Positions 54,453 to 58,917 of a stretch of 64,000 bases of DNA are shown piece after piece. The stretch's first letter is position 1; each line of letters begins with the position of its first letter. A program made the position numbers and the translations under genes. The notes under the pieces are model-generated. The model saw only the letters and a program-made list of their open reading frames with translations. It was not told the origin of the DNA and ran no database searches. Source of the DNA: Sumerlaeia bacterium (GTDB taxonomy: Bacteria > Sumerlaeota > Sumerlaeia > SLMS01 > JAHLLQ01); assembly GCA_040219255.1 (NCBI GenBank), contig JAVJSW010000060.1, positions 128,001-192,000 on the forward strand, given 5' to 3'.

Positions 54453-55760
54453 GTGACCGCCGAGCCGTACAGTGTCCTGATTATCGAGGACAACAAGACC
54501 GACGCGATGATCCTCAACAAGATCATCACCAAGCACGCGCTCGCCAAAGTGCAGGTGGTTTCCGACGGGCTCGAGGGACTGACCGAGTGCTTTCGCCTCC
54601 GGCCCGACACCTTGATTCTGGACCTGGAATTGCCGGGCATCCGGGGCGAGGAAATCTGCCGTTTGATCCGCTCGTCATCGACCTTGCGCGATCTTCCCAT
54701 TCTGGTCGTGTCCGAACTGCCGGACGCCAAGCGCCGCGAGATGGAAATGCTGCGCCTCGGCGCCGATCACTACATGGAGAAACCCTTCGTCGAAGTCGAC
54801 TTCGTCGCGGCGCTGCGCAACCTTCTGCATCAATGCGAAGACAGCACCGTGATCGAGTCGAGCGACGCGCTGCCGCTCGATGACTTGCAGGATCCTCTGG
54901 CGGACACGGAAGAAAGCCTTGGGCGGCATGAACCGGCCGACTCGATCCAGACTTTTCAGGGCTATCACCTGCTCGATGTCCTCGGCGCCGGCGGCATGGG
55001 CACGGTCTATCGCGCCCAGCAGATCAAACTGATGCGGACCGTGGCGCTCAAGGTTTTGCTGGAGCACTTCACCCAGGACCACCAGGTCCGGCGCCGATTC
55101 CAGCGCGAAGCCCTGATCATGGCCCAGGTCAATCACAACAACATCGTGCAGGTCTACGACGTCGGCAACACGGAGTACACCTCGTACTTCGCCATGGAGT
55201 ATGTGGATGGGCCATCGCTGCACGCGATGATTATCGAGGAGTCGCTGAACTGGCCGATGGTCGCGCGGGTCGTCGGCGAAGTGTGCGACGCGGTGGCATA
55301 CCTTCATTCCCAGGGCATCATCCACCGCGATATCAAACCGTCGAACATCCTGATCAACGGAAACGGCGTGGCGAAGATGACCGACTTCGGCATCAGCCGC
55401 GCCAAGCTGCCCGTCGACATCAGCCAAGTGGAAGACACCACCAACGAATACGCGATCCTGGGGACGATGAATTACATGGCGCCGGAACTGCTCTATGGCG
55501 GGGCGGCGACGGAGTTGACGGATCAGTTCGCCATGGGGCGGACGTTCTGGCGGCTCCTGGTCGGGATGGATGCGTTCGATCTGGACAAGCCATTGCACGC
55601 GTACCGGCCCGATCTGCCGATCGAATTGAGCAAGGCGATCGGTCGCTGCATGGATCCGGCGCCGGACCGCCGCTATCCCTCCATCGCGGCGGCGAAAGAG
55701 GCGATCCTGGCGGAGATCGAGGTGGCCCAGCACTTGGCGCCGGTGTACCGCGAGAGCTGA
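54453..55760 (+). CDS. Response-regulator receiver fused to Hanks-type Ser/Thr kinase
   Basis: IEDN, LDLELPG, EKPF; then GAGGMG, VALK, HRDIKPSN, DFG, YMAPE. Confidence 0.92.
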   Translation: MTAEPYSVLIIEDNKTDAMILNKIITKHALAKVQVVSDGLEGLTECFRLRPDTLILDLELPGIRGEEICRLIRSSSTLRDLPILVVSELPDAKRREMEMLRLGADHYMEKPFVEVDFVAALRNLLHQCEDSTVIESSDALPLDDLQDPLADTEESLGRHEPADSIQTFQGYHLLDVLGAGGMGTVYRAQQIKLMRTVALKVLLEHFTQDHQVRRRFQREALIMAQVNHNNIVQVYDVGNTEYTSYFAMEYVDGPSLHAMIIEESLNWPMVARVVGEVCDAVAYLHSQGIIHRDIKPSNILINGNGVAKMTDFGISRAKLPVDISQVEDTTNEYAILGTMNYMAPELLYGGAATELTDQFAMGRTFWRLLVGMDAFDLDKPLHAYRPDLPIELSKAIGRCMDPAPDRRYPSIAAAKEAILAEIEVAQHLAPVYRES

Positions 55761-55777
55761 GAATCCAAGCGAACACG

Positions 55778-55812
55778 AAAAAAGCCACCCCGGCGAAGAG
55801 AACCGGAGTGGC
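55778..55812 (-). terminator. Rho-independent terminator (minus strand)
   Basis: rc GCCACTCCGG...CCGGGGTGGC then TTTTTT. Confidence 0.7.
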
Positions 55813-55863: not shown

Positions 55864-56055
55864 TTAGGAGTGCGGACCGCCCCGCAGAAGTTGCGTCAGG
55901 ACCAGGGCGGCGGTGCAGAGGCCCGCCACCAGCAAGGACAGGGCGAAAGCGGCTGTCATGGACTTGCTGACCACCGACTTGCGGTGATCTTGATCCGCGG
56001 CGACTTCGCGGACGCGTTCAGGGTCTACGGCCCCGGGGCCGTGAGGCATGGCCAT
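55864..56055 (-). CDS. Small single-TM membrane protein
   Basis: AAGGAG RBS-like sequence upstream; one hydrophobic helix; lies between rne and the terminator. Exact ATG uncertain. Confidence 0.55.
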   Translation of the reverse strand: MAMPHGPGAVDPERVREVAADQDHRKSVVSKSMTAAFALSLLVAGLCTAALVLTQLLRGGPHS

Positions 56056-56124: not shown

Positions 56125-56493
56125 TTAGCCTTTCGCCTTCTTGGCGGCCTTTTTGGCGGAGGACTTCTTCGCCGCGCCGGCAGGCTTCGCCGCCGCAGCT
56201 TTCTTAGGAGCCGCCGCTTTCGGGGTCGAGGCTTTCTTTGCCGCCGCCGCCTTCTTGGGAGCAGCCGCCTTCTTAGGTGCCGCGGCTTTCTTGGGAGCGA
56301 CCGCCTTCTTGGGAGCAGCCGCTTTCTTCGGGGCGGCGGCCTTCTTGGGCGCAGCCGCCTTCTTGGGAGCGGGCTTCGGCTCGGCGGGGGTTTCCGCCGC
56401 TACGGGCTCTTTGGGAGCGACCGCTTTTTTCGCCGCCTTCTTGGTGGCCGTCTTCTTCGCGGCGGGCTTCGTGGTGGACTTCTTCTTGGCCAT
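56125..56493 (-). CDS. Nested in-frame histone H1-like Lys/Ala/Pro-rich protein (122 aa)
   Basis: GGAGG-8nt-ATG then MAKKKSTTKPAAKK...; shares the stop codon with the rne ORF. Confidence 0.6.
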   Translation of the reverse strand: MAKKKSTTKPAAKKTATKKAAKKAVAPKEPVAAETPAEPKPAPKKAAAPKKAAAPKKAAAPKKAVAPKKAAAPKKAAAPKKAAAAKKASTPKAAAPKKAAAAKPAGAAKKSSAKKAAKKAKG

Positions 56494-58917
56494 GGTGGGT
56501 GCCTCCGATGTGGGATCATCGCTCGCCGGGTCCGAATCCGTGCGATTCGATGACGAGGTATGGGGTTGAACCGCCGAAGCGGGTTTTTGATTCCGGGACT
56601 TTCGCGTTTCCCCTCCCTTAGCCTGCGCCGGGGGGGAGATCTTCTGCTCCCCCAGGCCCCAGGCCCCCACGAGTTCCACGACGTCCGAGCGGATCAGGGT
56701 CCGCAGGTCCGGCGCTTCGTAGGACTTGTCCAGCTCCCCGGGGGGAGTCGGATTCGGTGTTCGCGGCGGGCGGTCGCCAAAGGCGCCCTTGCGAATCGAT
56801 TCCACAGCCCGGCCACGGCCGTAAATCACACGGACGCCGCTGGAAAGCGTTTCGCCGCTTTCCGGCACGGGCACGGTCTGAGCGCTCGCTTTGAAAGACG
56901 CTGGGTCTTTCCCCGCGGCGGGTGGGCTCATCACTTCGGCGCGAGGCACGGCGGCCGCCGCGATCTCAGGCGCCAAGGGCTCGACGTCGCGCTCGATGGC
57001 CGCTGGGTCGACGGGTTCGTGCGCCAGCGAACGAAGCCAAGGCGAATCGGCCTCCAACTCTGCGCCTTCGGACTCTTCGTCCTCTGTTCCGCCTTCGTCC
57101 TCGGGACGGCGACCGCGGCGCCGACGGCCACCACGCCGCCCACGGCGTGTGCGGCGCTTCTTGCCCTCTTCATCTTCTTCGTCGTCCGATTCCGGATCCA
57201 GAGTCCGCTCCAGCGACGAGTCTTCCAGTTCTTCTTCGAGGACCGCTTCCACGGCCACAAGGGTCCGCACGTCGGACGGCAGGTCCTCGTAGGCGATCGG
57301 CGGAGCCACGGCCTCGTCTTCCTCGATGCGCTCGCGCGGTGTGCGGGGCGCCTTGCGGCGCGGCTTTTCCACCGGCGTGATGGTGAAGTCCTCGCGATGG
57401 AAATCCGAGTCGGCGCGGAACAGCAGTTCCAGATCGTGAAGAGATTCGAGCGCGGCGATGCTTTCCGCCAGGTCTTCCTGCAGCGTTTCCAGCAAAGTCG
57501 GTTCGCACGTCACGACGAAGCCGCTGAAGGCGCTCTTCGAGACGCCGACCTGGCGTTCGATTTCCGAACGCATGCGGCGCCACACTTCCCGGGGACGCAG
57601 CACAAGACCGGTGCCGTTGGTGTACGGATCGGGTTCGAAGACCTGCTTGAGGAGCGATTTGCGGATGCGCTTGCGGGTCATGATGAGGAGGCCGAAATCG
57701 CCGACGCGGCCCACGCTGCTCTTGGCGCGGTCCGGCTTCATGGCCTGGCGCAGTTCGTCATACACGCGGGTTTGGTTGTCGCGCGATTGCATGTCGATGA
57801 AATCGACGACGATGATGCCGCCGATGTCGCGCAGGCGAATCTGCTCCGCGATGGTCTGACAGGCTTCCAGGTTCGTCTTGAAAGAGGTGCTTTCCTGATT
57901 CTTGTTGCCGGTGAATTTGCCGGTGTTGACGTCGATAGCGGTCAGGGCCTCGGTTTCGTCGATGACGATGGAGCCACCGGACTTGAGCGGCACGGTGCGT
58001 TGGAAAGCCGACTTGAGCTGATCTTCCAGGCGATACTTGTCGAAGATGGGCTCGTGGCCGTGATAGAGCTTCACGCGCTCCACCAGGTCCGGCAGATCCT
58101 GGTCCAGGGCCGCTTCGAGCTCCTGCTTCAGTTCCACGTCATCGACGATGATTTCGTCGACCGATTGGCTGAAGGCGTCGCGCACGAGGCGGGGGATGAT
58201 GTCGTGATCGCTGTAGACGAGGCCGGGTTTCTTGCGGGCGCGGAAGCGTTCGCAGAGAGTTTGCCATTGCTCGCGCAGATTCTCCACGTCCGAACGGACC
58301 GAGTCTTCATCGGCGTTGGCGCCCGCGGTGCGAACGATGAAGGAGTCCATGTCGCTGCGCAGTTCATCGAGGAGCTTGCGGAGTTTGTCGCGATTGCGGC
58401 CCTGGGCGATGCGCTTGGACACGCCGCCGGACTGGCCGGGGAAGGGCAGCAGGACCACGAAGCGGCCAGCGATCGCCAGGTTCGTCGAGGCGCGGGGGGC
58501 TTTGGTTCCGATGCCGTCCTTGATGACCTGCACGATGATGCTATCGCCAGCCCGGATGGGGGCTTCGGCATCGCGGGCGCGCAGATCGACTTTCGGCCGG
58601 CGCCCTTTGCGTTCGAGGCGGCCGGGAATGCTTTCGCCCGCCGCTTCGATCAGGGCTTCATCCAGGTCTTCCGAGTCCATCACCAGAGCTTCGGTGCGGA
58701 TGTCGAGGAAGTGGAGGAAGAGATTGCGTTCGATTCCGACGTCGATAAAGGCGGCCTGGAGACCCGGCTTCACGTCCTGAACGACGCCGCGATAGATGTT
58801 ACCGACGAGGGATTTTTGGGAGAAATCTTCCTGGTGGAGCTCGACGAGGCGGTTGTTTTCGAGAAACGCGACGCGGATGTCGAAATCGCCCCGGTTGATG
58901 ACAACTTGCTTACGCAT
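56125..58917 (-). CDS. rne: Ribonuclease E/G family protein with long disordered C-terminus and H1-like tail
   Basis: GNIYRG.V..V.PGLQAAFID, IVQVIKD..GTK, GGSIVIDETEALTAIDVNTG, LRDIGGIIVVDFIDM; RRTRRGRRGGRRRR RNA-binding segment. Confidence 0.92.
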   Translation of the reverse strand: MRKQVVINRGDFDIRVAFLENNRLVELHQEDFSQKSLVGNIYRGVVQDVKPGLQAAFIDVGIERNLFLHFLDIRTEALVMDSEDLDEALIEAAGESIPGRLERKGRRPKVDLRARDAEAPIRAGDSIIVQVIKDGIGTKAPRASTNLAIAGRFVVLLPFPGQSGGVSKRIAQGRNRDKLRKLLDELRSDMDSFIVRTAGANADEDSVRSDVENLREQWQTLCERFRARKKPGLVYSDHDIIPRLVRDAFSQSVDEIIVDDVELKQELEAALDQDLPDLVERVKLYHGHEPIFDKYRLEDQLKSAFQRTVPLKSGGSIVIDETEALTAIDVNTGKFTGNKNQESTSFKTNLEACQTIAEQIRLRDIGGIIVVDFIDMQSRDNQTRVYDELRQAMKPDRAKSSVGRVGDFGLLIMTRKRIRKSLLKQVFEPDPYTNGTGLVLRPREVWRRMRSEIERQVGVSKSAFSGFVVTCEPTLLETLQEDLAESIAALESLHDLELLFRADSDFHREDFTITPVEKPRRKAPRTPRERIEEDEAVAPPIAYEDLPSDVRTLVAVEAVLEEELEDSSLERTLDPESDDEEDEEGKKRRTRRGRRGGRRRRGRRPEDEGGTEDEESEGAELEADSPWLRSLAHEPVDPAAIERDVEPLAPEIAAAAVPRAEVMSPPAAGKDPASFKASAQTVPVPESGETLSSGVRVIYGRGRAVESIRKGAFGDRPPRTPNPTPPGELDKSYEAPDLRTLIRSDVVELVGAWGLGEQKISPPAQAKGGETRKSRNQKPASAVQPHTSSSNRTDSDPASDDPTSEAPTMAKKKSTTKPAAKKTATKKAAKKAVAPKEPVAAETPAEPKPAPKKAAAPKKAAAPKKAAAPKKAVAPKKAAAPKKAAAPKKAAAAKKASTPKAAAPKKAAAAKPAGAAKKSSAKKAAKKAKG
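56245..56370 (-). repeat. Seven tandem 18-nt coding repeats (APKKA[A/V])
   Basis: Direct reading of DNA and protein; synonymous variation between units. Confidence 0.9.

What the first reader, a model, noticed from the sequence alone, without database searches (positions are those of the whole stretch)
56125..58917. RNase E fused in frame to a histone-H1-like module that has its own start site
Seen: one uninterrupted 930-codon frame comprising the catalytic Rne/Rng domain, an acidic and Arg-rich disordered region, then an abrupt switch at ...SEAPT-MAKKKSTTKPAAKK to a 122-aa K/A/P-rich module with seven APKKA[A/V] repeats. That Met has GGAGG 8 nt upstream, a better RBS than is visible for rne itself. 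Known: PAKK-type repeats bind and condense DNA (AlgP, HupB tail, chlamydial Hc2), and RNase E tails scaffold degradosomes and condensates. Inference: one locus yields both a nucleoid protein and a nucleoid- or condensate-tethered RNase E. Alternatively, a lost stop codon recently merged two genes.
Basis: partly seen in the sequence, partly recalled or inferred. Interest (0 to 1): 0.75.

Follow-up and report, generated by a model that had tools for sequence, protein, structure and literature searches.

The report
RNase E hiding histone-like gene
In this uncultured bacterium the gene for the main RNA-cutting enzyme RNase E ends in a lysine-rich, histone-H1-like tail that its relatives share, but only here does a strong second start signal sit exactly where the tail begins, so the gene likely also makes the tail alone as a small, predicted DNA-binding protein, as a sister family likely does from a different enzyme gene.

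Summary
Observation confirmed: one open 930-codon frame with intact RNase E/G catalytic residues and a 122-aa K/A/P module that starts at Met809, GGAGG 8 nt upstream. Relatives are named Ca. Sumerlaeia. The fusion is old, not a recent stop loss: 23 of 23 orthologues in the long-tailed clade carry an in-frame basic tail. The internal start is not conserved (0 of 23), yet only 1 of 12,312 other internal ATGs in this genome scores as high in a genome-trained start model. In a sister family, ppdK carries an AGGAG-type signal plus ATG at the start of its K/A tail in 8 of 9 genomes. This genome's ppdK has no such tail, and no stand-alone H1-like gene was found here; 2 of 10 family relatives have one. 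Best reading (about 0.62): one gene, two products, tailed RNase E and a free 11.9-kDa H1-like protein. Initiation, DNA binding and the raw reads are untested. The scan noted this nested-tail design before on other DNA (ppdK, murD, NYN RNase, BlaI); ten literature searches found no paper on it.

The parts
56125..58917 (-). rne/rng gene, 930 aa, single Rne/Rng copy found in the genome
57373..58917 (-). catalytic N-terminal domain (aa 1 to about 515); D329, N331, D372 match E. coli D303, N305, D346; R196, T197 match R169, T170 of the 5' sensor
   Evidence: alignment to PDB 2bx2, positions, residue roles from PMC6538622 section 3
57619..57630 (-). Zn-link position: DPYT in place of the CPYC of 28 of 28 other readable orthologues
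57106..57162 (-). Arg-rich segment (aa 586-604, RTRRGRRGGR type), conserved in the long-tailed clade; predicted RNA-binding
   Evidence: strict motif in 16 of 24 long-tailed sequences; function inferred
56818..56835 (-). first family-conserved short motif (hydrophobic strand then aromatic-Gly; VRVIYG)
56656..56679 (-). last family-conserved short motif (VELVGAWG); likely a partner-binding microdomain
   Evidence: function inferred
56494..56655 (-). linker aa 755-808: lowest codon score of the gene (GC3s 0.58 over aa 766-808); doubles as the likely 5' region of the nested gene
56502..56506 (-). internal Shine-Dalgarno GGAGG, 8 nt before Met809
56125..56493 (-). nested in-frame ORF: 122-aa K/A/P-rich histone-H1-like module (11.9 kDa, net +36)
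56245..56370 (-). seven tandem APKKA[A/V] repeats (aa 850-891)

Best explanation
This is a Sumerlaeia RNase E whose inherited lysine/alanine-rich C-terminal tail carries, in this lineage only, a ribosome-binding site and ATG at its exact start, so the gene likely yields two proteins: the full 102-kDa enzyme with a basic tail predicted to bind DNA, RNA or polyphosphate, and a free 11.9-kDa histone-H1-like protein that would stand in for the stand-alone H1-like gene of some relatives. Shown: the open frame, the catalytic residues, the tail's presence across the clade, the start-like context, the same layout conserved in ppdK of a sister family, and no stand-alone H1-like gene in this 92%-complete assembly. 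Inferred: that ribosomes start at Met809; that the module binds polyanions and acts on the nucleoid; that the start came either with a formerly stand-alone H1-like gene recombining into the old tail or by point changes in place (not separable here).
For: (1) Rank of the site: 1 of 12,312 other internal ATGs scores as high, 0 of 166 in disordered context; it is the best upstream context of all 405 codons of the tail; the score exceeds 93% of modelled true starts. The region -30..+33 is as weakly folded as real starts (-9.6 kcal/mol; starts mean -11.0, internal mean -18.9). (2) Of 44 ATGs in the tails of 24 rne genes only this one scores above 2 (5.3; next 1.9). (3) ppdK in sister family f2: 8 of 9 complete C-termini have an (A/C/G)AGGAG(G) signal 8-9 nt before an ATG at the first residue of the K/A tail while the spacer codons vary; all 8 use GAG for the conserved Glu. 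A further case sits in ppdK of G070, another family. (4) Stand-alone H1-like genes with MAKK-type starts exist in family relatives G006 (142 aa, APKKA repeats) and G001 (224 aa), and in G012 and G013; their starts score 5.2, 4.0 and 4.8 for G006, G001, G012. (5) In this genome two six-frame scans found no stand-alone K/A ORF, and its ppdK lacks the K/A tail that 9 of 9 readable family relatives have. (6) Precedents read as passages: 3'-proximal in-frame starts release C-terminal domains (ArcB-C, rpn genes; 10.1101/520783); KPAA-repeat domains of AlgP and PhaF bind DNA and position granules (PMC9239181).
Against: The start is not conserved: 0 of 23 rne orthologues; of 35 Rne/Rng proteins with a K-rich end, 2 have a Met near the start of that zone and neither looks like a start (these sets overlap). 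No relative above 57% identity was found, so selection on this site cannot be tested. The site was chosen because it looked like a start, and the model is self-trained, so its percentile among true starts is partly circular. 8 of 10 family relatives showed neither a stand-alone nor a nested H1-like gene in three low-sensitivity searches, so 'every genome needs one' is not shown. One of the eight ppdK sites (G019) scores poorly in the whole-context model (-3.7) despite strong SD pairing. No sigma-70-type promoter was found near the site. Neither the 930-aa nor the 122-aa sequence is in the protein collection, although three neighbours are, so no independent assembly confirms the junction.
Confidence: 0.62

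Rival explanations
1. Relic: a once stand-alone H1-like gene merged with the rne tail and brought its old start along, but the start is now weak or unused and only the fusion protein matters.
For: The module resembles the stand-alone gene of G006 in its N-terminus and repeat type. The linker has the lowest codon score of the gene and the most S/D/N/Q/H/T-rich, least A/P/E-rich make-up of 18 family sequences. The lineage sits on a long branch (0.69 vs median 0.22).
Against: An unused start would be expected to decay, yet it still ranks second of 12,313. The GC3 drop in the linker (0.21) lies within the orthologues' range (0.01-0.24), and 9% of disordered windows in the genome score as low. Tail length after the last WG motif (176 aa) is ordinary (112-214).
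Confidence: 0.17
2. Chance: an ordinary ancestral tail in which Ser-Glu-Ala-Pro-Thr-Met codons happen to mimic a start; one product only.
For: GGAGG is formed by common codons and lies 4-12 nt before 113 of 12,312 internal ATGs (0.9%). The site is unique to one genome, and a scan of very many windows will turn up rare coincidences.
Against: Synonymous recoding of the same peptide reaches the score in 0.03% of draws. The ATG lies exactly at the compositional boundary of the genome's only long K/A tract. The same layout is conserved in ppdK of family f2.
Confidence: 0.1
3. Two separate genes in the living cell: rne really ends in the linker and an assembly error (for example in the C7 run near 56630-56636, just before an out-of-frame TAA) joins it to a stand-alone H1-like gene.
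For: Homopolymer run and out-of-frame stop are in the sequence; the linker has low codon bias; reads were not seen.
Against: 0 frameshift candidates in 177 kb of genes aligned to homologues, with a positive control detecting 22 of 40 planted deletions, which bounds indels at roughly 1 per 30 kb. The fused state is what 23 of 23 orthologues show. The 122-aa protein is not recorded from any assembly. Base substitutions were not tested.
Confidence: 0.05
4. The start is used, but the free module is not a nucleoid protein: it acts as an RNA or polyphosphate chaperone, or tunes RNase E condensates by competing with the enzyme's own tail.
For: AlgP's KPAA domain localises to polyphosphate granules (PMC9239181; PMC11894788). 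The module is co-expressed with RNase E. It misses the Pfam HC2 cut-off (16 bits vs 40).
Against: The same kind of module is released from ppdK or encoded alone in relatives, which argues for a role independent of RNase E. Not exclusive of the best explanation.
Confidence: 0.06

Closest known systems
E. coli RNase E (Type I; PF10150, TIGR00757; PDB 2bx2)
   Same: N-terminal catalytic domain with D303/N305/D346 and R169/T170 equivalents, followed by a long low-complexity scaffold with an Arg-rich segment and short conserved motifs.
   Different: Scores below the RNase E and RNase G equivalog cut-offs; the Zn-link cysteines are replaced; the scaffold ends in a K/A/P tract with an internal start; its short motifs are lineage-specific.
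AlgP and PhaF of Pseudomonas (KPAA-repeat, histone-H1-like C-terminal domains); lysine repeats of actinobacterial TopA
   Same: A K/A/P-repeat disordered tail on a folded protein; reported to bind DNA, position granules or raise processivity (PMC9239181, PMC7398561 passages).
   Different: The host is an endoribonuclease; the repeat is APKKAA; a separate start for the tail is not mentioned in the passages read.
Chlamydial Hc2/HctB-type stand-alone H1-like proteins (PF07382)
   Same: Small, very basic, low-complexity K/A protein if made alone.
   Different: Below the Pfam cut-off (16.1 vs 40 bits inside the fusion; no hit alone); nested in another gene; similarity is compositional, so homology is not shown.
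In-frame internal translation initiation giving C-terminal proteoforms (ArcB-C, rpnA-E, IF2, ClpB)
   Same: A second start at a domain boundary releases the C-terminal part (10.1101/520783 and PMC13515050 passages).
   Different: Those cases are shown by experiment; term searches of those two papers found no mention of histone, and none of rne/RNase. Here the released part is a low-complexity basic module whose host gene differs between related lineages.
Mycobacterial RNase E-HupB association
   Same: RNase E linked to a histone-like protein and the nucleoid (PMC9062218 passages).
   Different: There two separate genes and a non-covalent, possibly indirect contact; here one gene.

Membership tests
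RNase E/G family (PF10150, TIGR00757) | profile score above curated cut-off | tested here: met
   325.8 vs 25.5 bits; 438.3 vs 325.95 bits
RNase E/G family (PF10150, TIGR00757) | Mg-binding aspartates with Asn, and 5'-sensor Arg-Thr | tested here: met
   D329, N331, D372, R196, T197 by alignment to 2bx2
RNase E/G family (PF10150, TIGR00757) | Zn-link CxxC (role recalled; title of the Zn-link paper seen) | tested here: not met
   DPYT at aa 430-433; 28 of 28 other readable orthologues have CPYC
RNase E proper (E. coli-type equivalog NF008074) | whole-protein score above cut-off | tested here: not met
   264.5 vs 908 bits; the RNase G equivalog also fails, 362.6 vs 594
RNase E proper (E. coli-type equivalog NF008074) | long non-catalytic C-terminal scaffold with Arg-rich segment and microdomains | tested here: met
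   about 415 aa low-complexity tail; motifs conserved in the family
RNase E proper (E. coli-type equivalog NF008074) | degradosome partners bind the scaffold; membrane-targeting helix | not tested
   no complex prediction or amphipathic-helix analysis was run
Hc2/HctB histone-H1-like proteins (PF07382) | profile score above gathering cut-off | tested here: not met
   16.1 vs 40 bits
Hc2/HctB histone-H1-like proteins (PF07382) | K/A/P-rich, strongly basic repeat composition | tested here: met
   103 of 122 residues are K, A or P; net +36
Hc2/HctB histone-H1-like proteins (PF07382) | binds and condenses DNA | not testable with these tools
   needs purified protein or imaging
In-frame internal-start proteoform genes | start codon with SD at a domain boundary, beyond chance | tested here: met
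In-frame internal-start proteoform genes | start conserved in orthologues | tested here: not met
   0 of 23 rne orthologues, all at most 57% identical; met for the parallel ppdK case, 8 of 9
In-frame internal-start proteoform genes | initiation or short product observed | not testable with these tools
   needs Ribo-RET, N-terminomics or western blot

The most novel reading that the evidence does not exclude
Sumerlaeota keep their histone-H1-like protein as a movable nested gene: a K/A module with its own start that is stand-alone in some genomes, nested in ppdK in one family and nested in RNase E here, so the free basic protein is co-produced with, and its message controlled by, whichever tailed enzyme hosts it. 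In this genome that would couple nucleoid-protein supply to the main RNA-decay enzyme and place RNase E and its free tail on the same polyanion.
Probability: 0.45. Interest if true: 0.75.

Novelty: new variant of a known kind. Interest (0 to 1): 0.58.

Why it matters
Annotation pipelines call one protein per frame, so a basic nucleoid-type protein made from an internal start would be missed, and lineages that seem to lack an H1-like gene may carry one inside an enzyme gene. The Sumerlaeia series (stand-alone, nested in ppdK, nested in rne) offers a natural test of how such modules move and whether tailed enzyme and free tail are co-regulated. An RNase E with a covalent H1-like tail across a whole clade also gives a simple construct to test how RNase E can be held at the nucleoid or in condensates without a membrane anchor.

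Tried and rejected
Recent stop loss as the origin of the fusion: rejected, tail in frame in 23 of 23 clade orthologues. A UUCG hairpin with an A5 run in the linker as a sign of old intergenic DNA: rejected; such hairpins are as frequent in coding as in other DNA (0.0125 vs 0.0128 per kb-strand), it folds at only -5.5 kcal/mol, and the 201-nt region has z = 0.08. Low GC3 in the linker as proof of non-coding origin: inconclusive. Scans of metagenome and genome contigs returned only distant Rne/Rng loci, 31-40% identical; among 151 closed ORFs of those 160 loci none had a K/A tail (1 K-rich hit, not of this type). Searches for close relatives found none above 57% identity. A search for short proteins matching aa 630-830 found none among 2,051 candidates. 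The module alone hit one L21 protein. Exact look-ups did not find the 930-aa protein under four tested ATG starts plus one shorter form, nor the module; the GTG start was not tested. Sigma-70 promoter scan: 0 sites. ESM Atlas look-alikes of the downstream membrane peptide stayed under the tool's bar. Term searches in PMC5714199 found no RNase mention. No structure or complex prediction was run. Raw reads were not examined.
Full report
1. What is in the sequence. The frame 58917..56125 on the minus strand is open for 930 codons. It hits Pfam RNase_E_G and TIGR00757 above cut-off and falls below the RNase E and RNase G equivalogs. It is the only Rne/Rng match in the genome. Alignment to E. coli RNase E (PDB 2bx2) places D329, N331 and D372 on the Mg site and R196, T197 on the 5' sensor (roles from PMC6538622, section 3 read). 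After about aa 515 come an acidic stretch, an Arg-rich segment, two short hydrophobic-aromatic-Gly motifs, a 54-aa linker and, from Met809, a 122-aa module of net charge +36 with seven tandem APKKA[A/V] repeats. GGAGG lies 8 nt before Met809. Close homologues are named Candidatus Sumerlaeia or Sumerlaeota by their sources; I take that as the lineage.

2. The tail is old. A search of 61 genomes matched 59; I fetched the best 30 loci. All 23 orthologues from families f1, f2 and f4 are 839-1070 aa long and end in an in-frame basic K/A/(T,P) tail, net +7 to +42 over the last 100 residues; 22 frames are closed and one runs off its contig. The f3 member and four class-level relatives are 515-581 aa and lack it; a sixth locus is open-ended. 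A tree of the catalytic domains of 29 of the 30 loci (the open-ended one left out) puts the 24 long-tailed genes in one clade (100/100) and this gene inside family f1 (100/100) on a long branch. So 'RNase E with an H1-like tail' is a clade trait, and a recent simple stop loss is not the explanation. K-rich ends also occur on more distant Rne/Rng proteins: 35 of 159 proteins with the core motif, a set that overlaps the genomes above.

3. The internal start is unique but very start-like. I modelled 2,861 genes from codon statistics and trained a start model (25 upstream bases plus pairing to the genome's own 16S 3' end; cross-validated AUC 0.96 on 2,254 starts and 4,000 sampled internal ATGs). 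In five-fold held-out scoring, 1 of 12,312 other internal ATGs reached the score of Met809, and 0 of 166 in disordered context; several of the top 'internal' sites look like misplaced true starts, which makes this comparison conservative. Random tail codons gave 0.08% and synonymous recoding 0.03%. Among 44 tail ATGs of the 24 long-tailed genes only this one scores above 2. Limits: the model is self-trained, so the percentile among true starts (93%) is partly circular; the site was picked because it looked like a start; the rne start itself scores higher overall (7.0 vs 5.3) although its SD pairing is weaker (-4.8 vs -9.5 kcal/mol). No orthologue keeps the start, and none is closer than 57% identity, so selection on it is untested.

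4. A conserved parallel in the same order. Searching with the module led to ppdK of G019, whose K/A tail begins with AAGGAGG, 8 nt, ATG. I read ppdK C-termini from 59 of the 60 relatives matched, plus one that proved truncated. In family f2, 8 of 9 complete C-termini have an AGGAG-type signal 8-9 nt before an ATG at position +27/+28 from a fixed core motif, at the first residue of the tail; pairing is -9.1 to -13.5 kcal/mol; the spacer residues vary; all 8 use GAG for the Glu, against gene-specific GAG fractions whose product is about 0.025 (kin are not independent). G016 has a short tail without Met; G022 gave no match and G024 is cut off. Seven of the eight sites score above 97% of internal ATGs in the model trained on this genome, G019 does not. 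In family f1, 9 of 9 readable ppdK genes have K/A tails without such a signal (G009 has an N run; G008 has a Met with weak pairing). Outside the order 33 of 39 have at least 8 Lys after the core; G070 has an SD-like signal before a tail Met, and G071 may too but was not scored. This genome's own ppdK has no K/A tail.

5. Stand-alone counterparts. G006 encodes a free 142-aa protein beginning MAKKK with APKKA repeats, G001 a 224-aa one, and G012 and G013 others. Two six-frame scans of this genome (92% complete) found no such gene; the rne tail is its only long K/A tract. It has three HU/IHF genes. Against a general rule: 8 of 10 family relatives showed no stand-alone or nested form in three searches that handle low-complexity sequence poorly.

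6. Is the junction an artefact? Reads were not seen. Indirectly: 0 frameshift candidates in 177 kb of genes aligned to homologues, with 22 of 40 planted deletions detected, bounds indels at about 1 per 30 kb; the fused state matches all orthologues; gene order (rne, then a small membrane-peptide gene) is kept. Neither product is in the protein collection under the starts tested, while neighbours are, which leaves the junction without independent confirmation. The linker is codon-poor (GC3s 0.58; 1% of all and 9% of disordered 43-codon windows score as low) but its GC3 drop lies within the orthologues' range.

7. Mechanism. Most likely (0.62) ribosomes start at both Met1 and Met809. The long product is an RNase E whose Arg-rich segment and short motifs would recruit RNA and degradosome partners, and whose basic tail would hold it on DNA, RNA or polyphosphate; that tail role is inferred from AlgP, PhaF and TopA lysine repeats (PMC9239181, PMC11894788, PMC7398561, passages read). 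The short product would be a free H1-like protein replacing a stand-alone gene. Whether the start arrived with a captured gene, perhaps by recombination between K/A-repeat DNA, or arose in place cannot be told. Rivals: unused relic 0.17, chance 0.10, used start with a non-nucleoid role 0.06, assembly error 0.05.

8. Relation to what is known. In-frame internal starts that free a C-terminal domain are established (10.1101/520783, passages; PMC13515050, passages), and so are H1-like tails. Mycobacterial RNase E associates with HupB as separate proteins (PMC9062218, passages). Streptomyces RNase ES has N- and C-terminal scaffolds (PMC10126417, passages; no mention of lysine); that it ends in a K/A tract is my recall and was not tested. 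Ten full-text searches (listings and abstract starts seen) showed no paper on an H1-like protein nested in rne or ppdK. The library lacks most subscription papers, and the Ribo-RET supplementary site list was not seen. The scan's own notes record the same design on other DNA (ppdK of Anaerorhabdus, murD, NYN RNase, BlaI, PHB depolymerase) and a second first-reader note on this locus. I found the ppdK parallel before those look-ups and did not check the other genomes.

9. Verdict. Real feature; old fusion; a lineage-specific internal start with strong statistical support and a conserved parallel, but no conservation at this locus and no expression data. New variant of a known kind; interest 0.58.

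Noticed in passing
window 55864-56055 (-): A 63-aa single-membrane-helix ORF with its own AAGGAG directly follows rne. A profile found it in 19 of the 24 long-tailed loci and in none of the 6 others (17 of the 19 built the profile). No Pfam family above cut-off. It could be a membrane anchor or regulator of this RNase E; untested.
   Followed up: partly
L244, L245, L246, L247, L251, L257, L261, L331 (ppdK 3' ends, family f2): Conserved AGGAG-type signal and ATG at the first residue of the K/A tail in 8 of 9 genomes; predicted free products of 41-225 aa. A better-conserved example of the nested design than the rne case.
   Followed up: yes
L307:370-555 (G070); L313 (G071): ppdK tails in another family with an SD-like signal before a tail Met, possibly an independent gain; L313 not scored.
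   Followed up: partly
window 57619-57630 (-): Zn-link cysteines replaced (DPYT) only in this genome among 29 readable sequences; the catalytic domain is also on a long branch.
   Followed up: partly
window 56656-56835 (-); L002-L024: Family-specific repeated motifs in the RNase E scaffold: hydrophobic strand plus WG in f1, an LxxxLDxIE-type helix in f2; candidate partner-binding microdomains.
   Followed up: no
window 55784-55812 (-): 11-bp stem followed by six T, a likely terminator after rne and the small membrane-peptide gene; the scan's total count did not exceed shuffles.
   Followed up: no
L269, L279, L357: Family f2 genomes carry a short N-terminal domain (ribbon-helix-helix-like by eye, not tested) fused to a K/A tail.
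   Followed up: no
L206, L271, L274, L283; own genome contig C9 (L238): DUF4912-type proteins of the family begin with an MAKK-type K/A segment; the own copy has only a short basic start.
   Followed up: partly
window 54453-55760 (+): Response-regulator receiver fused to a Ser/Thr protein kinase, convergent with the rne operon.
   Followed up: no
G027, G036, G041, G045, G049, G053, G057: In family f7 the Rne/Rng gene has a very long in-frame insertion (roughly 550-1150 aa) between the first 80 residues and the rest of the catalytic domain, instead of a long C-terminal tail.
   Followed up: no
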